A DNA stretch of 14,225 bases from Paraspadella gotoi. Taxonomy: Eukaryota > Animalia > Chaetognatha. The notes beneath the pieces were generated by a model. That model was not told the DNA's origin. It did no database searches and was given only the letters and a program-made list of their open reading frames with translations. The number at the start of each line of letters is the position of its first letter. Position 1 is the first letter of the stretch. Where the stretch lies: the NCBI GenBank assembly GCA_051294375.1, contig JBJCIZ010000055.1:1-14225 (forward strand). The letters are read 5' to 3'. Positions 1 to 13,625 of the stretch are shown in pieces. The position numbers were made by a program, and so were the translations under genes.

Positions 1-733
1 GGAGAGATAATTTACACGGTAGGGCAGAGATGATATAAAAGAAACAAAAAAAGTGCCATCTTGGAAACCTGCAAAATTTTAAAGTACACTACTATGAGGC
101 ACTCCCTGTGATAGGTTTAGCAAATTCCGGTACCTCTGAACCAAGAACTTAATTTTTACAAATGTCACATAAAATTCTATTGATATACATCAAACATTAT
201 CTACGCGACAAGAGCTTTTAATTTAAGACGCACTCTCAAGTCTCAACTTTCTACGACTTTGCATTGTTGAGTTATTTATAAAAATAACTTAATTTTACAA
301 ACAAGACAGTAATTACAATTAGGAGATGCGTCGTGTATTTTCTACATCTGTAATGACACGACAGTAATAGGGTGACACAGAATTACCCTTTTAGGAAGCA
401 GGAAGATTGTTTTAAAACTCTCTCTCTTTTTTTTTCATAGAGAAAAACGGACATGTGTCGGCTTTAATATTTCAATCCTTCATATTATGAAAAATTGCAA
501 GATTACTTGTTTTACTATATTAACTGCTAGGCGACCACTGGGCTAAAACCCCAGACCTCTGGGTTTGGTGGCGAAGGACTTGCCTCTGGCACCCATTGAT
601 GAACGGTTGGTAGATTTTAGTCCACTATAATTTCTTTAAATCTCAAAACAACGATAAAGAAAATATTATAACGCAGTATAATTCTAAAAATTTGTAATTT
701 GTCCTACCTATTATTAATGTATAACCAGCAAAT

Positions 734-1125
734 TTTATGGGACTCGAAGAATCAGAACGATTGTGGGGCAGAAAAACGCACTATAAAGTCACTTTTTGAT
801 AATTTAAAAAATTAAAATTTTGTTTCATAATTGGTAATAACTTTTTCACGAGCCTATAATGTTTTTAAATTTTTTTTAGATAACTGGGATATTTTACAGT
901 CATCAAGAGGGGGGAAAAAGCCTAAAGATGTGTATAGTATAGTATAGTATATACATACTTAGGCTTTTTCCCCCCTCTTGATGACTGTAAAATATCCCAG
1001 TTATCTAAAAAAAAAAAATTATTACCAATTATGAAATAAAATTTTAATTTTTTAAATTACCAAAAAGTGACTTTATAGTGCGTTTTTCTGCCCCACAATC
1101 GTTCTGATTTTTTGAGTCCCATAAA
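734..1125. repeat. Near-perfect ~390-bp palindrome / foldback (MITE-like)
   Basis: 734-925 is the reverse complement of ~959-1125 (TTTATGGGACTC...GAGTCCCATAAA; GAGGGGGGAAAAAGCCTAA / TTAGGCTTTTTCCCCCCTC). Centre is (TATAG)n; left arm has ~29 extra nt. Confidence 0.9.
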
Positions 1126-1836: not shown

Positions 1837-2087
1837 ATTTAATTTATACGGAGTATTATTACACCATCATGTCATTATGAATCATTTAACCTAATTTTTT
1901 AAAAAATAAGTTATTTTTATAAATAACTCAACAATGCTCAGTCGTAGAAAGTTGAGAGTGGTCTTAAATTAAAGCTCTTGTCGCGTAGATAATGTTTGAT
2001 ATATAACAATAGAATTTTATGTGACATTTGTAAAAATTAAGTTCTTGGTTCAGAGGTAAGTTAAAACAAAAATAAAAAATCTTTAAC

Positions 2088-2355
2088 TGAAGAGGCTGGT
2101 TTTACAGGGCGCCACACCCGCAGCGGTGTCACCTCGTGGGACAGCGAGACAGCATGTTCATGTAGTCCAGAGCTTTGGATCTGGCAGTAGGCCCATGCCT
2201 ACAGGCGGGTTACCCGGTCCATCCCACTTTCTACATGACAACCTCAGGGCTCGAACCAGGGACGCACATTGGGATGGTGCATTAGTCCACTGAGCCACTG
2301 AGGCGCTGCGAAAGAAACAGCTTTAATCCATCTGTGGTGATAGGACCACCAGACA
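2088..2355 (-). repeat. TRIM 3' LTR
   Basis: Minus strand (TG)TCTGGTGG...CTCTTCA, preceded by GGGGGCGGC. Confidence 0.9.
2247..2297 (-). promoter_or_regulatory. Pol III type-2 internal promoter (A and B box) in the 3' LTR
   Basis: A box TGGCTCAGTGG (2297-2287), B box GGTTCGAGCCC (2257-2247), starts 40 nt apart; enclosed by a GCCTCAG/CTGAGGT stem. Confidence 0.72.
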
Positions 2356-2364
2356 GCCGCCCCC
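2356..2364 (-). promoter_or_regulatory. Polypurine-tract-like sequence of the TRIM
   Basis: GGGGGCGGC immediately 5' of the 3' LTR on the minus strand. Confidence 0.7.
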
Positions 2365-2512
2365 AGGACTCTCACATATGAGAGTACGAAGTAGGGGATG
2401 AAGCGCATGTCTCTCCGCTGAACCTCTCTTCATTCTGGTGGCCTTTGCGTTGAGTGGCAGCTTGCGTAGCTCAAACCACATCAAGGGCAGAGGAGTATTA
2501 TCATGCCCGGTT

Positions 2513-2543
2513 GGTTGCGTGTTCGTATCACGTCGGCTCACCA
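2513..2543 (-). promoter_or_regulatory. Extended primer-binding site complementary to the tRNA-Trp 3' end
   Basis: Plus strand GGTTGCGTGTTCGTATCACGTCGGCTCACCA versus the metazoan tRNA-Trp 3' end as I recall it, GGTTGCGTGTTCRAATCACGTCGGGGTCACCA. Confidence 0.88.
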
Positions 2544-2544
2544 T

Positions 2545-2812
2545 TGAAGAGGCTGGTTTACAGGGCGCCACACCCGCAGCGGTGTCACCTCATGGGGACA
2601 GCGAGACAGCATGTTCATGTAGTTCAGAGCTTTGGATCTGGCAGTAGGCCAATGCCTACAGGCGGGTTACCCGGTCCATCCCACTTTCTACATGACAACC
2701 TCAGGGCTCGAAACCAGGGACGCACATTGGGATGGTGCATTAGTCCACTGAGCCACTGAGGCGCTGCGAAAGAAACAAGCTTTAAATCATCTGTGGTGAT
2801 AGGACCACCAGA
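2545..2812 (-). repeat. TRIM 5' LTR
   Basis: Minus strand TCTGGTGG...CTCTTCA, followed after 1 nt by TGGTGAGCCGACGTGAT. Confidence 0.9.
2704..2755 (-). promoter_or_regulatory. Pol III A/B box in the 5' LTR
   Basis: A box TGGCTCAGTGG 2755-2745; B box GGTTTCGAGCCC 2715-2704 (one extra T versus the other LTR); TTTAAA at 2781-2786 upstream. Confidence 0.62.
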
Positions 2813-3513
2813 TAACTACTTTTTAAAAAAAAACATGCCTTTACCGGAATTTGCTAACCTATCACAGGGAGTGCCTCATAGGTGTACTTTAAAATTTTTC
2901 AGGTTTCCAAAGATGGCACTTTTTTTGTTTCTTTTATATCATCTCTATATCGTCGGCGTCACGCTGTTTTATATATACAAGTTTGAGGCAAACAATGTCG
3001 GATCTGCCTACGATAATTAATTAATTAATAGATTAATTAATTAATTAATTTTAATAATTAATTATAATTTATATTCAGGCCTTGTCATCAATCGATGTCC
3101 TTAAAATTGAGGTCAGGACAGTTATTAAATGTTTTGTTTACATTTATCAAAACAACAAATATCCTCTATTATCGAGCCAGGCGGGCAAAGCCCGTCCTGG
3201 CTAGATTTTGATTCGGTTAGCTTTCGGTCACGCTTTTTTGCAATCATGGCTTCTGAAAGTGTGATATCATAGGGAGTTGAAATTTCATATATGGCTTCTA
3301 AGATCAAGATCTTTAAATTCTGATGTTTCATATCAATATTCGTATTTGTTTATGTTTTATTTACAAAACAAAAACGTTTTAATTATATGTCGCTCTCTCT
3401 CTCTCTTTCTTTTAAATATATGTCGCTCTCTCTCTCTCTCTTTTTCTCCGTCACTGCTTCTTCTGATTTGTCTAAAAACGAGTTCCGGCTCTGCAGCGTC
3501 TGTCCAGCTTCTT

Positions 3514-4303: not shown

Positions 4304-5109
4304 ATGCAATAGCGACGATCCTTATGCTTTTAAGATTTTTTTAACTTGCATCATTTTTCAACTTGCATCATTTTTTCAACTTGCATTCCGTCAAAACTTT
4401 ATATCTAGCTTCTTCACTCACTTTCCTACTGGCTCACAAATTTCATCTCAATCTATCATGGTTAAAATAAATAAAAAGATTCAAGTAAATGTGACTCATA
4501 TTTTTTTCATTTAAACTCATTTCCACTGGTACGTTTCTACTGAAACTTTATATCAAGCTTCGTCACACATTTTCCTACCCACACACAAAATTTCAACTCA
4601 ATCTATCCATCCAATTATGATTAATTAGAGTATTTATTGGTTAAAATAAGTAAAAAGATTTTAGTAAATTCGACTTATGTTTTTTCCATTTAAACTAATT
4701 TCCACTCACACGATTCCATCGAAACTTTATATCCAGCTTTATAACACACTTCCTACTTACACACAAAATTTAATTCCAATCCAACCAGCCAATCACGAGT
4801 TATTGGAGCTTTTTGCTAAGATGGGACGGACGGATGGATGGACGGACGGACGGACGGACGGACATCATTTTTTTTGCATAATTTATCATAATTCGATGTT
4901 CTGACATGATATAAGTGTGTGCCCGACAATATTGAGGGGGCAGACCGACGGACCGACAAAGTGAGTTATAGAGTCGGATATGCTGATAAGCAGATCCGAC
5001 TAAAAACTACTACGCTTTTATAGGTTTGGCTGTGACTTACCGTTTTTTTTAAAATAAAAATTATTATGAATTATGATAAAGTTTTACAAAAGTGTGCGAT
5101 CATAGTAAG

Positions 5110-6026: not shown

Positions 6027-6455
6027 GATTATTTTTTCCTTCTATAAACTTTTATTATCACCATTTATTCCGCGCTTTTTTTTTCATACAAAATCCCAAA
6101 TTTATATTTGAGATTTTCGTGGATTTTTTTGAGTAAATGTGAAGAATAACTTACTTGACCTGGATTTCGTGGCCGTTGCAGGGCAACGAGTAAACAATGT
6201 CAAGGAACATGACCTCATAACGCGTTTCGCGTTCTCTCTCTCTCTCTGTCTCTCTCTCTCTCTCTCTTTTTACAAAAAAAAAATTTATTCACTTTTTTTT
6301 TCACCACCGTCATTAGAAAAAGACGAGTCTTGCGTGATCGTTCGTTTTTTGAAAAATTCTGATTATTTTTTTCCTTCTAAAAACTTTTATTATTGCCATT
6401 TATTCGCGCTTATTTCCCAAATTTACATCTGAGATTTTCGTTGATTTTTTTGAGT
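5530..6455 (+). repeat. Repeat-derived segment related to the family-2 interior, with ~340-bp tandem duplication
   Basis: Block TGATTATTTTTTCCTTCTA...GAGATTTTCGT recurs at ~5678, ~6026 and ~6360 and resembles 3830-3895; (CT)n tracts in between. Confidence 0.75.
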
Positions 6456-7323
6456 TATGACGGCTGTTTTACAAATATCCTGCTCTGCTACAGGTACTTG
6501 ATGGTAGCCTTTACAAAGGTCTACTTTTGAAAAAATTGTTTTGCCTGCGACATGTGCGTTGAAATCCATTAAATTTTTGATGGGGTAGCGGTTGTCTTTT
6601 GTGACTGCGTTGAGGCGCCTGTAGTCGCCGCAACAACTAAGTGAGCCGTCAGGTTTTTTAACCACATGTAGTGGTGATGCCCAAGCACTCTTGCTCTTCC
6701 GTATAATGCCCAGCTTCTCCATTTTTGCAAATTCTTCTTTGGCTGCTTTGAGTTTGTCAGGTGCAAGTCGGCGTGCTTGGGGTGGACAGGCGGACCCTCG
6801 GTTGGAATGTGGTGTTCTACACCATGCTTGGTCTTCGAAGGGTCAAATCTGAGTTGTGTGAGTTCTGGGCGTTCGTCAATCAATTTGAAATAGGCATTAT
6901 TGACTGTATTGACTCTGAAAGGCCTGTCCAGGTAAGATTTGCCTGCGATTGTTGAAAAATCATCAAGATCCACGAGTAGGCCGAGCTTGTGGTCGGCGGC
7001 TAAATGATGCTCCATCAGAAAATCAGCTCCAAGAATAGGGGTCGTAACGTCAGCGAGTACGGTTGTTAGTGAGTATGTGCGTCTTCCTAGTCTGATAGTG
7101 ATTTGTTTGGTGCCGTAGGAAGAGATTGGAGACCCATTTGCAGCATGAAGTTGAGGCGCGGAGCCCCGCGGAGCTTTTCTGATGGCGAAGGCGCCATCAA
7201 GGTGACGCTTGCACCACCGTCCACAAGCCATGCCAAGTTGTTGTTGTCGTACACGTGCAGTAAGGGCTCTGTACAACTAGCAGCGGCGTTTACTGCCTCC
7301 GGCTGCTGGCTCGGCCGTTTCCC
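6452..7323 (-). pseudogene. pol: pol fragment: aspartic protease and N-terminal reverse transcriptase, two frameshifts, truncated before YXDD
   Basis: WLVDGGASVTL...AANGSPISSYG...PILGADFL; HHIPTEGPPV; LGIIRKSKSAWASPLHVVKKPDGS..CGDYRRLNAVT..RYP..FSKVDLCKGYHQVPV..DICKTAVIT. Frame changes near 7170 and 6778. Confidence 0.93.
7279..7323 (-). promoter_or_regulatory. Programmed -1 ribosomal frameshift signal (G GGA AAC plus downstream stem-loop)
   Basis: GGGAAAC at 7323-7317 is in the gag phase (CGG GGA AAC); the -1 frame opens into protease; stem AGCAGC/GCTGCT with inner GGC/GCC begins ~9 nt downstream. Confidence 0.8.
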
Positions 7324-8690
7324 CGCCTGCATCTTGGGTAACATTTGATTGCTCGGTCTCCAAATGTCCGATGATAGAAACAAAGTCCATTGATGAAATC
7401 AGGAGAGGAGTTGAAAGAGTTTGCAACTGGTCGGCGAGAGAAGGTAGTGCTGTTGCTGTTGTTGGGGAAACGGCGCTGTTGTGTTGTCGCTGGTCTTCGG
7501 CAGCCAGGTCGGACCTGTGTCCTGGGGCATAGTTGGCCACGTCCGGAAGTCGCGGCACACACGCTGGCGTATGTGCATGGAGGCACATCCTCTGGTGGAT
7601 GCGTCATCCGCCAAGTCGGGCGCATACTCATCGCACTCGACATGACTGACGACTTTTCCAATGGGTTTTGAGGTGATCTGAAGATCACCTTGGGCAGAGT
7701 AAAATGCGTCCGCCTTCTTGGCGATCGCTTCTGGCGTCTCGTCCCCATCGCTGACTACCCTTCCGGCCACATGGGCTGGGAGGACCTCGGCCAGGATCGC
7801 ATTGAGGAGATGGTCGATCGTCAGGGATTCGACTTCAGTGCGCAGTGCGGCCACGAACTGCGAAGGAGTGCGTCCTGCGAGGGAGTGGTGACCAAGGAGT
7901 TTTTGCGCCTTTTGCCGGGGCTTCTCGGCGAACAGCTCAGATGCTTTTTCACAGCTAGGTAACCACCAGAGACAGGGTGGTCATTGGTGTAAAAACCTCT
8001 GATCAGGACCTGGTGCTCCTGTGGTACTGCGCCTAGAAGGTGCATCTTTTTGTGCTGCTCATCCACAACTGCAGCGAGGCGGAAACTCCCCTCGACAGCA
8101 GCAAGCCAGGCTCTGATGTTGCCGACATCAAAAGGCGGCAGCTTAGGCGTCTTGGACCGGTTGGTGCTTGGCGCCTGGTAGTCCATTGGTACGGTGGAGG
8201 CTCCTACCGCGTCGACGTTGTCTGGGTGTTATTGACCTGCGAACTGGCATAATCTTTGACTAAGGTCGCCTGTGGACCTGTGTGGCATCGCCGGTGGTGC
8301 CTGCTGAGCTGCTAGCAGGCGTTGGAGGGTTGATGTGAGGTACTCAATTGAGGACCTCACGCTCTCATTGAAGCTTTCTTGCTTTGCCTCCAATCCCAGA
8401 ATCCTGTTGTTGAAAGACTGGATCAGCCCGTTTGATGACCCTGGTACGGTCCTGAAGGAACCGACGTTGGATCGGGGGGGCGTAATCACGCTCTTGACTT
8501 TGGTCTGGTCACCGCGTGGCGTCTTGAAGGCGTCGTCCTGTTCCGGCGATGGTGGCGGCGATGAGATCGGGGTGGGGGGTGTGACAACGTCCTCCATGCG
8601 GCGTCGTTTGAAGTTTTCCGCTGAAGGCGAGGTGGAGGCGCGGCGGGTTCCGCATCCGTGAGGGGCCTCCATATCGAGCAGATGTTCCAT
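7290..8690 (-). pseudogene. gag: gag with long N-terminal extension; one in-frame stop (8229-8231) and two frame disruptions
   Basis: Pieces 8690-8229, 8186-~7940, ~7940-~7600 and ~7600-7290; KLPPFDVGNIRAWLAAVEGSF, RTPSQF, AKKADAF and the C-terminal CHCC motif. Confidence 0.82.
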
Positions 8691-9600
8691 GATCGTAGAG
8701 ACTGCTGATTGTAAAAAAAAATAAAAATTCACTAATTCTGCACCGAACAGAAAATTTCGATCTCGGCAGCATAAAATTAAATGATATTACTCATTTGACT
8801 TACATAAAATTTTTGATGGCCTGAGGAGTATAACGCGTTTAACTATAGCTCATGCAGGATGACGCTAATTTTTTTTTAAAATCTGATGAATAAAAATTCT
8901 CTGTAAAGAAAAAAAAAACTTTTTTGAAGGTCTCAAGTTTTTAATCGTATTTTCTTAGCTTACCGTCTAAAAAAATAAAGATGACCTGATCCAAAGTCTA
9001 AAAGTTATTATTCCGAAATTTGATCATTGACCTTTAACGTTCTCGTCGAAAAGATACTATAAATACTTAAAACAGATTTTTAGAGCATTGTCTATGGCTG
9101 ACTCCCTATAGCCCTTAAACGTTTATAAAATTAAACCTCGGAAAATTCTCTGACAAAACTGTTTAAACGGCGCGGTAAAATGAAAAACGCGTTGGCGAGA
9201 CGGTCATTCACGATACCGTAAGTTAAACTGTAATTAAATTAAATGGACGAAAATTGATTAGGATTAGTATCGTAACTCAAAACCTCAAAGTTAAACCAAA
9301 TACAAATCGTTGAAAACTCCTAAAAAAAAATATTTAGAACTGAGAGCCTTTTGACTGCGGTTAATCCGGGTAGCGAATGCCGAAATGTTGGACGTTGGAA
9401 AAGACGCGCGCGACTGAGAAAAATAGAAATTGCGAAAATTGGCTGATGGCGAAATAGACCGTTAAACTGAGTGAATCTTCTTCACTAATTCAACCGCCTA
9501 TTTACAATTGATAAATAAAATAATTGATCAATCACTCGATCAATCAAATCATAAACCAATCGATCAGCGTCAGTAAAAATCAGAAGGTTACTTATCTTAA

Positions 9601-9613
9601 GTCGGGATCACCA
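9601..9613 (-). promoter_or_regulatory. tRNA-Trp primer-binding site
   Basis: TGGTGATCCCGAC one nt after the LTR end TACA; complement of the tRNA-Trp 3' end with one G:U pair. Confidence 0.88.
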
Positions 9614-9614
9614 A

Positions 9615-9873
9615 TGTAGAAGACGAAAATAATAATAATAAATTGTGACGATGTAAGAGAAGTAGAAAAGAAGTGAGACTAGCTCTCTCCTGATTCACTT
9701 TTATAATCGCCCGAACCAACTTGACCTTACGGTCGCCACGGCCCTATTACTGTGTCCGGTCAATCTAAGGTCATTGCCAAAGCTAAGGCAAAGTGACCGT
9801 GTGGAATAGACCGGCTCGAAGAAAGAGGAGAGAGGAAGGGTTTAGAGAGAGAGACCGGTGGTAAGTCGCCTCA
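9615..9873 (-). repeat. 5' LTR of the CsRn1-like element (~259 bp)
   Basis: Ends TACA at 9618-9615; TATAAAA at 9705-9699; TG start at 9873 inferred from the junction with HINE sequence (no second LTR to confirm). Confidence 0.7.
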
Positions 9874-11677
9874 CTTGCATCATTTTTTCACATTAATTAA
9901 TTAATTATTTAATTAAAACATTTATTAGTAATCATTAATATTAAAGATTCAAGTAAATGTGACTTATGTTTTTTCCATCTAAACTCATTTACACTGGCAC
10001 AATTCCGTCAAAACTTTATATAATTATTATATATGCAACGATCCTTATGCTCATTTTTCTGCTCGCTCTCTCTCTCTCTCTCTCTTTGCAATTGCGACGA
10101 TCCTTATGCTTTTAGGATTTTTTTAACTTGCATCATTTTTCTGCTTGCATCATTTTTTCACATTAATTAATTAATTAAAAATTTGTATTAATAACCTCTA
10201 TCTAACTTTTAAAGCTCTATCAGAATCTATTAAAAAAAATTGAAAATTTAAAAAAAATTTTCAACTTTATATAGTAATTAAATAATTTTTAAATGCTTCT
10301 GTGATAAATTTTAAAAATTATTTTCATTTTCATTATCTCTAACAGTCACTTAACCATTATTTATTTGAGAGAACTTCTAGTTTTCAACCTGTTCCGGCCT
10401 ACTGATTAATTAATTATTGATTAATTAATTGACTAATTGATTAATTAACTGATTAATTATTTCATTTATTAATACATCCTGCATATACATTTAATATAAA
10501 AGGAAAAAGAATCATAATCAATTAGTGAAACAGGTTTTTTGTTTTTTTCCATTTAAACTCATTTCCACTCAAAAGATTCCATCGAAACTTGGTTTCCTGT
10601 TTAATCACACACTTTTCTACTCACATACAAAATTCCAGGTCAATCGATAATTAAGTGGTAATAAGCTAACTTGGTCAACTTGCATAATTTAATCAATTTG
10701 CATAATTTGGTCAACTGACATAATATGGTTAACTGACATAATTTGGTCTACTGACATAATTTGGTCAACTGACATAATTTGATCAATTAAGATAATTTGG
10801 TCAACCGGCATAATTTGGTCAACTGGCATAATTTTATTAACTGGCCTAATTTGGTCAACTGGCATAATTTGGTCAACAGGCATAATTTGGTCAACTTGCA
10901 GAACTTGATCAACTTGCAGAATTTGGTCAACTGGCATATTTTTGTCAATTGGCATAATTTGTCAATCAATCAATCAATCAATCAGAGAGAGATAGAGAGA
11001 GAGAAACTTTAAAAAATTCAAATAAATGTGTCTTTTGGTTTTCTAATTTGAACTCTTTTCCCCTCCTACAATTCCATCAAAAAATTTATATCCAGCTTCA
11101 TCACATACTTTCCTACCCACACACAAAATTCAATTTCGATTTATCTGTCCAATTTTTAATAAACATAATAATTATGAGTAAATTTAAGTAAAAATACTTC
11201 AAGTAAATATGACTTTTGTTTTTTTCCATTTTAACTCGTTTCCACTCGCACGATTCCATCGAAACTTTATATCCAACTCAATCACACACTTTCCTACCAT
11301 CATACAAAATTTCAAGTCAATTGCCCTATCCACTCATGAGCAATTGGCGTTCAAATAGTGAAATATATTTTTTTGTTTTTTCCATTTAAACCAATTTCCA
11401 CTCGCACGATTCCCTCGAAACTTCATATCCATCTCAATCACACAGTTTCCTACCCACACACAAGATTTCATACCAATCCATCCATCCAATCACGAGTAAT
11501 TGGAGTTTTTTGCTAAGGTGGGACGGACGGACGGACGGACGGACGGACAGACGGACGGACGTACATAGTTTTTTTTGCATAATTAATCATAATTCGATGT
11601 TCTGACATGATATAAGTGTGTGCCCGACAATATTGAGGGGGCGGACCGACGGACCGACAAAGTGAATTATAGAGTCG
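9874..11677 (-). mobile_element. HINE family 1 copy lacking the 5' hairpin
   Basis: 11380-11677 aligns with 4680-4976; (GTCC)n at 11521-11560; the same central repeats and ACTTGCATCATTTTT / GCGACGATCCTTATGC blocks as 4287-4385. Confidence 0.78.
10671..10960. repeat. 18-bp minisatellite (TTGGTCAACTGGCATAAT)n
   Basis: Tandem units read directly; inverted copy at 13210-13525. Confidence 0.95.
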
Positions 11678-11734
11678 ACAACTTTTTATACTAAAAAAAA
11701 TCAAATTTGAGAAAAGAAAATTAATTTATAAACA

Positions 11735-12410
11735 AAGAAAAAGAAGAAAAGAATAAATATAAAGAAAGAATAGAAAGGAAAGAAAGAAAAGAAAGGAAAG
11801 AAAGAAAAGAAAGAAAAAAAAATAAGAGAAAAAAAAGAAAGGAAAGAAAGAAAAGAAAAAAAAGAAAGAAGAGAAAAAAAAGAAAGAAAAGAAAGGAAAG
11901 AAAGAATAGAAAGGAAAGAAAGAATAGAAAGGAAAGAAAGAATAGAAAGGAAAGAAAGAATAGAAAGGAAAGAAAGAATAGAAAGAAAAGGAAAGAAAAA
12001 ATAGAAAGAAAAGAAAAGAAAGAATAGAAAGGAAAGAAAAAATCGAAAGGAAAGAAAAAATAGAAAGGGAAAAAAAATAGGAAGTAAAGGAAAAATAAAA
12101 AGGAAAGAAAGAATAGAAAGAAAAGAAAAAATAAAAAGGAAAGAAAAAATTGAAAGGAAAGAAAAAATTGAAAGGAAAGAAAGAATAGAAAGGAAAGAAA
12201 AAATAGGAAGGAAAGAAAGAATAGAAAGGAAAGAAAGAATAGAAAGGAAAGAAAGAATAAAAATGAAAGAAAGAATAGAAAGGAAAGAAGGAATAAAAAT
12301 GAAGAAAGAATAGAAAGGAAAGAAAAAATAGAAAGGAAAGAAAGATTAGAAAGGAAAGAAAGAATAGAAAGGAAAGAAAGAATAGAAAGGAAAAAAGAAA
12401 AATAAAAATA
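11735..12410. repeat. Purine-rich 18-bp minisatellite (AAAGAAAGAATAGAAAGG)n
   Basis: ~680 bp almost purely A/G on the plus strand with 18-nt period. Confidence 0.95.
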
Positions 12411-12509
12411 GAGAGAGTGACGAGAAGAAAGAACGAAATAAAAACCTGATGTTGCGATAGCAAAATGATAACATGCACAAATGCGAAGCCTAATTTTATG
12501 AGTTCAATC

Positions 12510-13174
12510 CTCTATAATTCACTTTGTCGGTCCGTCGGTCCGCCCCCTCAATATTGTCGGGCACATACTTATATTATGTCAGAACATCGAATTATGATAA
12601 ATTATGCAAAAAAAAACGATGTCCGTCCGTCCGTCCGTCCCACCTTAGCAAAAAACTCCAATTACTCGTGATTGGATGGATGGATTGGTATGAAATTTTG
12701 TGTGTGGGTAGGAAACTGTGTGATTGAGATGGATATGAAGTTTTGAGGGAATCGTGCGAGTGGAAATTGGTTTAAATGGAAAAAACAAAAAAATATATTT
12801 CACTATTTGAACGCCAATTGCTCATGAGTGGATAGGGCAATTGACTTGAAATTTAGTATGATGGTAGGAAAGTGTGTGATTGAGCTGGATATAAAGTTTC
12901 GATGGAATCGTGCGTGTAGAAATGAGTTAAAATGGAAAAAACAAAAGTCATATTTACTTGAAGTATTTTTACTTAAATTTACTCATAATTATTATGTTTA
13001 TTAAAAATTGGATAGATAATTCGAAATTGAATTTTGTGTGTGGGTAGGAAAGTATGTGATAAAGCTGGATATAAATTTTTTGTTGGAATCGTAGGAGTGG
13101 AAAAGAGTTCAAATTAGAAAACCAAAAGACGCATTATTTGAATTTTTTAAAGTTTCTCTCTCTTTATCTCTCTC

Positions 13175-13213
<39 letters not shown>

Positions 13214-13536
13214 CCAAATTATGCCAATTGACAAAAATATGCCAGTTGACCAAATTCTTAAAGTTGACCAAATTATGCCAGTTGACCAAATTCTGCAAGT
13301 TGATCAAGTTCTGCAAGTTGACCAAATTAGGCCAGTTGATAAAATTATGCCAGTTGACCAAATTATGCCGGTTGACCAAATTATCTTAATTGATCAAATT
13401 ATGTCATTTGACCAAATTATGTCAGTTGACCAAATTATGTCAGTAGACCAAATTATGTCAGTTAACCAAATTATGTCAGTTGACCAAATTATGCAAGTTG
13501 ATTAAATTATGCAAGTTGACCAAGTTAGCTTATTAC
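12510..13536 (+). mobile_element. HINE family 1 copy, inverted relative to 10658-11674, interrupted at 13537
   Basis: Reverse complement of 10658-11674 throughout, including (GTCC)n, central repeats, (ATTG)n and the 18-bp minisatellite. Confidence 0.85.
13210..13525. repeat. 18-bp minisatellite (TTGACCAAATTATGCCAG)n
   Basis: Tandem units read directly. Confidence 0.95.
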
Positions 13537-13625
13537 TAGGGTTCCGAAAACCGTTAATTTTTGAGAAATTTCGCTTAACCGTTAAAACGAATATTTTTAA
13601 CGGTTAACCGTTAAAATCGGTTAAT
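13537..13625. mobile_element. hAT-like DNA transposon terminus
   Basis: HINE homology stops abruptly at TAGGGTTCCGAAAACCG; clustered sub-terminal AACCGTT/CGGTT motifs; partner end not seen in the window. Confidence 0.5.

What the first reader, a model, noticed from the sequence alone, without database searches (positions are those of the whole stretch)
2513..2543. Over-long (~31 nt) tRNA-Trp PBS with a substitution exactly at the m1A58 position
Seen: the match to tRNA-Trp runs from CCA through the whole T arm into the variable loop (GGTTGCGTGTTCGTATCACGTCGG-CTCACCA), with T where the T-loop has A58 (GTTCG-T-ATC) plus a mismatch/indel in the acceptor part. Known: plus-strand copying of the primer normally stops at m1A58, limiting a PBS to 18 nt or less, and RT read-through of m1A gives mismatches. 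Inference: either a fossil of RT read-through of the mature modified tRNA, or a selected extension letting the parasite out-compete its helper (13-nt PBS at 9601) for primer. The tRNA sequence is from memory of metazoan tRNA-Trp.
Basis: partly seen in the sequence, partly recalled or inferred. Interest (0 to 1): 0.75.

Follow-up and report, generated by a model that had tools for sequence, protein, structure and literature searches.

The report
Retrotransposon copies its primer tRNA's tail
A small jumping gene carries a stretch matching its primer tRNA that is 14 bases longer than the textbook 18 and has the wrong letter at tRNA position 58, as do its sister copies and similar elements elsewhere, likely because the copying enzyme overran a methylated base and the slip was inherited, so these elements may record tRNA modifications in DNA.

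Summary
Observation confirmed. Window 2513-2543 matches a tool-derived eukaryotic tRNA-Trp from position 45 to the CCA end, with T in place of A58. It is the primer-binding site (PBS) of a 725-nt TRIM with tRNA-like A/B boxes in its LTRs and a 4-bp TSD, which fits the Helenus group. In contigs of 4 host runs, sister copies read T, G, or G plus an inserted G at 58; none is listed with A (which filters some contigs). The missing acceptor G is nearly private to this window. The feature is not unique. Of 17 non-redundant CCA-ended tRNA-Trp tracts from other contigs, 5 differ at 58, against 4 of 138 other tract sites (p about 0.001). Tracts reach positions 27-48, and 5 of the 17 lie upstream of a CsRn1-type gag. 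The Gypsy in this window also carries tRNA positions 38-48 beside its PBS. Best reading: inherited reverse-transcriptase over-extension on the mature, modified primer, probably recurring (0.7). The idea that the parasite out-competes its helper is not supported. New variant of a known kind: a long, inherited counterpart of the lentiviral primer over-extension sequence.

The parts
2513..2543 (-). Extended primer-binding site, complementary to tRNA-Trp positions 76 to 45
   Evidence: Alignment to L010 and L022 tRNA-Trp
2513..2525 (-). Over-extension beyond the canonical PBS (tRNA 45-57: variable loop, 5' strand of T stem, T loop)
   Evidence: 13 of 13 identical in register
2526..2526 (+). tRNA position 58: T here; G, or G plus an inserted G, in sister copies; A not listed
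   Evidence: tables 3, 4, 7, 8
2527..2543 (-). Canonical PBS (tRNA 59-76), one G short in this copy
2545..2812 (-). 5' LTR of the TRIM
   Evidence: 96.7% identical to the other LTR over 269 columns (alignment)
2088..2353 (-). 3' LTR of the TRIM
2354..2366 (-). Purine-rich tract next to the 3' LTR (likely PPT)
   Evidence: sequence
2247..2297 (-). tRNA-like A box (2297-2287) and B box (from 2257) in the 3' LTR
   Evidence: motif match to the Helenus definition
2704..2755 (-). Same A box (2755-2745) and B box (from 2715, one extra T) in the 5' LTR
2084..2087 (.). 4-bp target-site duplication, left copy
2813..2816 (.). 4-bp target-site duplication, right copy
9601..9613 (-). 13-nt tRNA-Trp PBS of the neighbouring Gypsy (A at tRNA position 70)
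9579..9589 (-). Second tRNA-Trp patch beside the Gypsy PBS: tRNA positions 38-48, 11 of 11
   Evidence: 4 of 20000 shuffles reach 11 nt
6423..8786 (-). Broken, truncated gag-pol of a CsRn1-type Gypsy (gag domain, CHCC motif, RT fragment)
   Evidence: RVT_1 E 4.6e-6 and DUF7041 E 0.0017, both under the curated cut-off; CHCC motif; RT homologues up to 68% identical

Best explanation
The tract is the primer-binding site of a Helenus-type TRIM that matches tRNA-Trp 14 bases past the usual limit, and it likely arose when reverse transcriptase overran methylated A58 of the primer tRNA, put in a wrong base there, and the overrun DNA was kept at plus-strand transfer. Shown: the match, the LTR/TSD setting, several non-A states at 58 among host copies, and the same outlier site in other organisms' elements. 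Inferred: (1) plus-strand DNA sometimes runs past m1A58 into the T arm and beyond; (2) its 3' tail anneals just downstream of the PBS and is fixed after integration; (3) once present, the extension makes later overruns complementary, so they transfer productively and rewrite position 58 and the junction again; (4) the enzyme is supplied in trans by a tRNA-Trp-primed CsRn1-type Gypsy. The tract would then work as a long primer over-extension sequence.
For: Host family (4 runs, 3 studies): three states at 58 (T; G plus inserted G; G alone), each with a different indel at the 5' junction near position 45 (2511-2516), while the abundant contigs carry no other letter change between. G-bearing share of laid depth: 0.43, 0.02, 0.62, 1.00. 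m1A followed by A gives T/G mismatches with low C (PMC4787781). Other contigs: 19 metagenome hits = 2 bacterial tRNA-Glu, 1 whole tRNA-Trp, 16 CCA-ended tRNA-Trp pieces, plus 2 such pieces among 3 genome-collection hits. After dropping one 98.6% duplicate, 5 of 17 are non-A at 58 (3 G, 1 C, 1 T), against 4 of 138 free tract sites, p=0.0008. Metagenome-only control: 5 of 15 against 1 of 30 at free sites 69/70, p=0.012. Related loci differ at 58 (L015 G vs L017/L027 A; L028 G vs L012 A; L029 G vs L021 T) and in tract length and the position-57 letter. L014 runs to position 28 with its only mismatch in 28-47 at G37; L012 and L028 end exactly after G26; L009, L016 and the window's Gypsy end exactly after G37. 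Positions 26, 37 and 58 are RT-readable modification sites in human tRNAs (PMC11770116). The CCA end is present throughout. DUF7041 gag lies downstream on the element strand in L013, L015, L018, L026, L027.
Against: 12 of 17 outside tracts keep A58, so read-through there was mostly faithful or the tracts came another way. Yet the host family shows no A, which plain misincorporation does not predict. Human-like contigs are dropped silently. Depth at 2526 is 0.64 (X1) and 0.81 (X5) of that at 2392, so an A class could be hidden there, though not in X9 (1.16) or X2 (1.07). X2 is 98% T and its other classes may have failed to align. Enrichment of tract ends after 26/37 is weak and post hoc (p 0.04 to 0.11) and the loci are not all independent. 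The scan required the tract from 48 onward, so it gives no frequency among Trp-primed elements. The 4 other non-A loci (L020, L021, L028, L029) have no gag hit in the ORFs scanned and could be tRNA retro-fragments. The TRIM tract ends at 45, not after 26 or 37. No host tRNA sequence or modification data were obtained. In HIV-1, products running to 37 are reported as unable to serve as templates (PMC13191261).
Confidence: 0.7

Rival explanations
1. One old capture, since kept by selection for a longer RNA-primer duplex; position 58 varies only because m1A cannot pair, so any base opposite it is neutral.
For: The predicted duplex roughly doubles, from -22 to -26 kcal/mol for the canonical part to about -48 for the whole tract (unmodified RNA). 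Pairing outside the PBS is known, including the ASLV U5 interaction with the T arm of tRNA-Trp (PMC13191261). The Gypsy keeps 38-48 intact while the T-arm part has diverged, which looks like selection on a patch. Not exclusive of the best explanation.
Against: Neutrality does not raise the mutation rate: three different changes at one base, each with its own junction indel, in a family whose LTRs are about 97% identical is unlikely without re-copying. It does not explain the mismatch at G37 or the ends after 26 and 37. Gag-coding elements have the tract too, so an advantage over the helper is not indicated.
Confidence: 0.2
2. The extension came from DNA-level recombination or insertion of a tRNA-Trp gene, pseudogene or SINE piece at the PBS, followed by ordinary mutation (possibly selected loss of an antisense B box).
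For: The LTR already holds a tRNA-like piece, so such captures happen in this lineage. A58 is part of the B-box motif (established knowledge). Most outside tracts keep A58.
Against: Many separate families show the tract in exact register with PBS and CCA, with graded 5' ends and changes concentrated at modified positions. No tRNA-gene flank is seen in any tract.
Confidence: 0.07
3. Chance similarity or a sequencing error at 2526.
For: The window has probable homopolymer indel errors.
Against: 13 of 13 in-register match, p about 3e-8; T58 carried by high-depth contigs in three runs.
Confidence: 0.01

Closest known systems
Helenus TRIMs (TRIMp3; Kojima 2024, PMC10886601)
   Same: Two LTRs, short non-coding interior, total under 1 kb, tRNA-like A and B boxes in each LTR, PBS and PPT, 4-bp TSD as in animal Helenus, PBS type shared with a Gypsy.
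   Different: The two Trp-primed Helenus in the paper's data match only about 13 nt and its Figure S2 shows no long extension. Three short motifs of this element found no match in its supplement. The LTR appears to start TC rather than TG.
Primer over-extension sequence of lentiviruses and spumaviruses (PMC13191261, PMC8599865)
   Same: Sequence directly downstream of the PBS complementary to the primer beyond position 58, which lets overrun plus-strand DNA transfer.
   Different: Described as reaching position 55/54; here it reaches 45, and 38 or 27 in other elements. It sits in Gypsy/TRIM elements and carries a modification-type mismatch that varies among copies.
CsRn1-clade Gypsy elements (PwRn1, AgCR; PMC2582038)
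   Same: tRNA-Trp PBS including the variant with G at PBS base 7, CHCC gag motif, 4-bp TSD.
   Different: The passages read give a PBS of about 12 nt and mention no extension or second patch (its PBS figure file was not viewable).
m1A reverse-transcription signature in tRNA-seq (PMC4787781, PMC11770116)
   Same: T/G mismatches at m1A followed by A; stops and mismatches at 26, 37, 58.
   Different: Measured in vitro on cDNA; here the pattern is in inherited genomic DNA.

Membership tests
TRIM | Two LTRs, under 1 kb, no coding capacity | tested here: met
   LTRs 2088-2353 and 2545-2812, 725 nt in all; the only stop-to-stop frame of 100 aa or more crosses PBS and LTR and was not scanned for domains
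TRIM | PBS after the 5' LTR, PPT before the 3' LTR | tested here: met
Helenus | tRNA-like sequence in LTR with TRGCY..YGG A box and GGTTC B box | tested here: met
   Both motifs in the 3' LTR, 40 nt apart start to start; the 5' LTR B box has one extra T in a run. ARAGORN and Rfam call no tRNA, so the evidence is motif-level
Helenus (animal) | 4-bp TSD | tested here: met
   TAAC on both sides when the LTR ends at 2812; one other junction in run X5 breaks at the matching place, 2353
Helenus / TRIMp3 | Transcription by RNA polymerase III | not testable with these tools
   No run of four or more T on the element strand is compatible but is no test
Helenus | Identity with a described family | tested here: inconclusive
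   Three element-specific motifs of 9-14 nt absent from the paper's supplement; no alignment to its sequences was run
CsRn1 clade (neighbouring Gypsy) | tRNA-Trp PBS and CHCC gag motif | tested here: met
CsRn1 clade (neighbouring Gypsy) | RT phylogeny within the clade | not tested
   Only a homologue list was obtained
Primer over-extension sequence | Complement of primer positions past 58 directly downstream of the PBS | tested here: met
Primer over-extension sequence | Rescues plus-strand transfer of overrun DNA | not testable with these tools
   Inferred only

The most novel reading that the evidence does not exclude
tRNA-Trp-primed (CsRn1-type) Gypsy elements and their TRIMs routinely overrun m1A58, complete strand transfer with the overrun tail, and keep rewriting the DNA next to the PBS from the mature primer. 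Their copies would then be a heritable archive of tRNA modifications (58, 37, 26) and isodecoder use in animals never studied by tRNA-seq, and a long or split over-extension patch would be a working part of their replication.
Probability: 0.45. Interest if true: 0.82.

Novelty: new variant of a known kind. Interest (0 to 1): 0.64.

Why it matters
The textbook holds that plus-strand synthesis stops at m1A58 and that longer overruns are dead ends. If these tracts are inherited overruns, animal Gypsy elements do inherit primer sequence, and the fate of over-extended strong-stop DNA can be counted from genomes alone. Copies would report tRNA modification sites and the error spectrum of a natural retrotransposon enzyme in vivo. 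In practice, such tracts can be mistaken for tRNA pseudogene fragments and are missed by PBS finders that assume 18 nt or less. The element is also a further, apparently undescribed, Helenus family.

Tried and rejected
No whole genome is held, so neither a copy census nor the host tRNA-Trp was available. ARAGORN found no tRNA in the window. Rfam on 2000-2900 gave 4 matches, all far under their gathering scores. No RNA holder listed. Only 4 of the 12 listed runs were laid; the variant table for more samples stays open. Viral contigs: the T-arm motif hit 8 phage tRNA-Ala genes only; two protein scans for an unbiased set of CsRn1-type loci found no relatives; the split-PBS motif gave 6 hits, 1 tRNA-Arg gene and 5 apparent chance matches. 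Three older papers sought by recalled PMC ids were not held, so Ty1 primer-inheritance and HIV strand-transfer primary data were not read. Ten full-text searches of the open library listed no paper that, from title or abstract start, describes inherited long PBS extensions with a position-58 mismatch in retrotransposons; subscription journals and Repbase notes were not searched. Two look-ups of earlier scan findings were empty. Rejected: the acceptor indel as a family trait; sequencing error at 58; a plain 13-nt helper PBS. Rows dropped before counting: L010, L022 (whole tRNA-Trp), L019, L024 (bacterial tRNA-Glu), L025 (98.6% identical to L013). The 1-of-34 control counts two sites fixed by the pattern, so the control is quoted instead.

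Full report
Observation. The window has no tRNA gene and no genome is held, so I obtained tRNA-Trp from a motif scan. L010:358-429 is an ARAGORN tRNA-Trp(CCA) in a eukaryote-looking tRNA/5S cluster, and L022 is a second one. Window 2513-2525 equals positions 45-57 (13 of 13, chance about 3e-8). Window 2526 is T for A58, and the rest follows positions 59-76 with one G missing. C70 occurs in L010 itself. The honeybee 3' end printed in Kojima's Figure S2 has G70 and A58-A59. The host's own tRNA-Trp was not seen.

The element. On the minus strand the tract is the PBS of a 725-nt TRIM: LTRs 2545-2812 and 2088-2353, 96.7% identical, a purine tract before the 3' LTR and a 4-bp TSD. Each LTR has an A box and a B box on the element strand. 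This fits the definition of Helenus in PMC10886601, of which I read parts 1-4 of 6 of the text, supplement parts 1 and 10 of 11, and one supplement search. Its two Trp-primed families match only about 13 nt. A broken Gypsy at 6423-9850 has a Trp PBS, a CHCC motif and weak RVT_1 and DUF7041 hits, the traits of the CsRn1 clade (PMC2582038, passages). It is a plausible type of helper, but no shared sequence with the TRIM beyond the PBS was found.

Host copies. Ten of 12 listed runs hold part of the element; I laid four. At 2526 the only other letter listed is G: 43%, 2%, 62% and 100% of laid depth. Three classes can be read from the tables: T; G with an inserted G; and G alone at about single-copy depth. 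There is also one heavily diverged copy with G. [quoted passage not shown] Most depth has the G that the window lacks. Limits: these are contigs, depth is not copy number, some contigs did not align, and human-like contigs are filtered unseen. An A class could hide in X1 (depth ratio 0.64) or X5 (0.81), not evidently in X9 or X2.

Other organisms. A metagenome scan from tRNA position 48 to CCA, with 58 and 69/70 free, gave 19 loci: 2 bacterial tRNA-Glu, 1 whole tRNA-Trp and 16 tRNA-Trp 3' pieces without a gene. The genome collection added 2. One duplicate was dropped. Of 17, 12 keep A58 and 5 do not (3 G, 1 C, 1 T), against 4 mismatches in 138 unconstrained tract sites (p=0.0008; the tract-end rule favours few mismatches) and 1 of 30 at 69/70 (p=0.012). 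The four other mismatches are at 37, 38, 41 and 47. Tract ends lie at 27, 27, 28, 32, 38, 38, 40-47 and the pattern edge; the excess just after 26 and 37 is suggestive only (p 0.04-0.11). Five of the 17 have a DUF7041 gag downstream, L017 is 88% identical to one of them, and L014 has a protease (22 ORFs were scanned, not all that were listed). Four of the five non-A loci lack such proof. Related loci differ at 57, at 58 and in length, which points to separate copying events.

The neighbouring Gypsy. 9579-9589 equals tRNA 38-48; 4 of 20000 shuffles reach this, and it is the only such place in the window besides the TRIM. The supposed short-PBS helper therefore has its own, decayed or split, extension.

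Mechanism. In retroviruses plus-strand DNA stops mainly at m1A58, with minor products at 55, 54 and 37. Lentiviruses carry a short over-extension sequence that lets the 55/54 products transfer, while the product at 37 is reported not to (PMC13191261, passages and section 9; PMC8599865, passages). RT reads through m1A with mismatches, low in C when A follows (PMC4787781, passages). Positions 26, 37 and 58 are RT-readable sites and m1G37 reads as G/C/T (PMC11770116, passages). That tRNA-Trp itself is modified at 26, 37 and 47 is recalled, not tested; the passages seen of PMC10275265 did not address it. I infer that overrun tails were fixed next to the PBS and, once there, allow and record later overruns. 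Selection for a stronger primer duplex (about -48 versus -22 to -26 kcal/mol) may help keep the tract but does not explain the changes at 58. The absence of A in the host family, against 12 of 17 A elsewhere, is unexplained: enzyme bias, few founding events, filtering, or selection against an antisense B box.

Novelty and verdict. The element type (Helenus), the clade traits and the short viral over-extension are known. Ten searches of the open library (listings only, except the papers named) showed no report of long inherited extensions with a modification signature in Gypsy or TRIM elements. Older and subscription literature and Repbase notes could not be checked, and figure files of PMC2582038 were not seen.

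Noticed in passing
window 9579-9613: The Gypsy PBS is split: tRNA-Trp 38-48 intact (11 of 11), 11 diverged bases where the T arm would be, then the 13-nt PBS. It ends exactly after G37.
   Followed up: partly
window 2812 and 2353: TSD and one other junction put the LTR's 5' end at TC, not TG.
   Followed up: partly
window 2088-2814: All 4 gap columns between the LTRs lie in homopolymer runs, and nearly all contigs have one more T behind 2556; the assembly probably has run-length errors, which may also account for some Gypsy frameshifts.
   Followed up: partly
runs X2, X5, X9: The share of the T and G+G classes differs strongly between samples, which may reflect separate recent expansions or alignment loss.
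   Followed up: no
L018:1184-1229, L026 (minus strand, next to the PBS), L013:1173-1300: Stacked partial repeats of the tRNA-derived tract beside the PBS, some with T or G at 58 while the main tract has A; looks like successive captures.
   Followed up: no
L012, L028: 50-nt tRNA-Trp tracts (27-76) in a shared family, followed by ORFs that look LINE-like (PHD finger in L028), not gag.
   Followed up: partly
L014:1-1173: tRNA tract 28-76 runs directly into a gag-protease frame, as expected of a deletion made when an overrun tail anneals far downstream.
   Followed up: no
L009, L010, L011: Eukaryote-looking contigs (tRNA and 5S cluster; extended PBS tracts) inside records titled as bacterial MAGs: probable contamination.
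   Followed up: no
window 10600-13540: Large inverted-repeat (foldback-like) element with 18-nt and about 156-nt subrepeats around a purine-rich satellite; related subrepeats at 4385-4976.
   Followed up: no
window 734-1125: 113-nt inverted arms, 96% complementary, 166 nt apart (MITE-like).
   Followed up: no
window 520-600 and 1330-1660: Two GC-richer islands of unknown repeat type, no second copy in the window.
   Followed up: no
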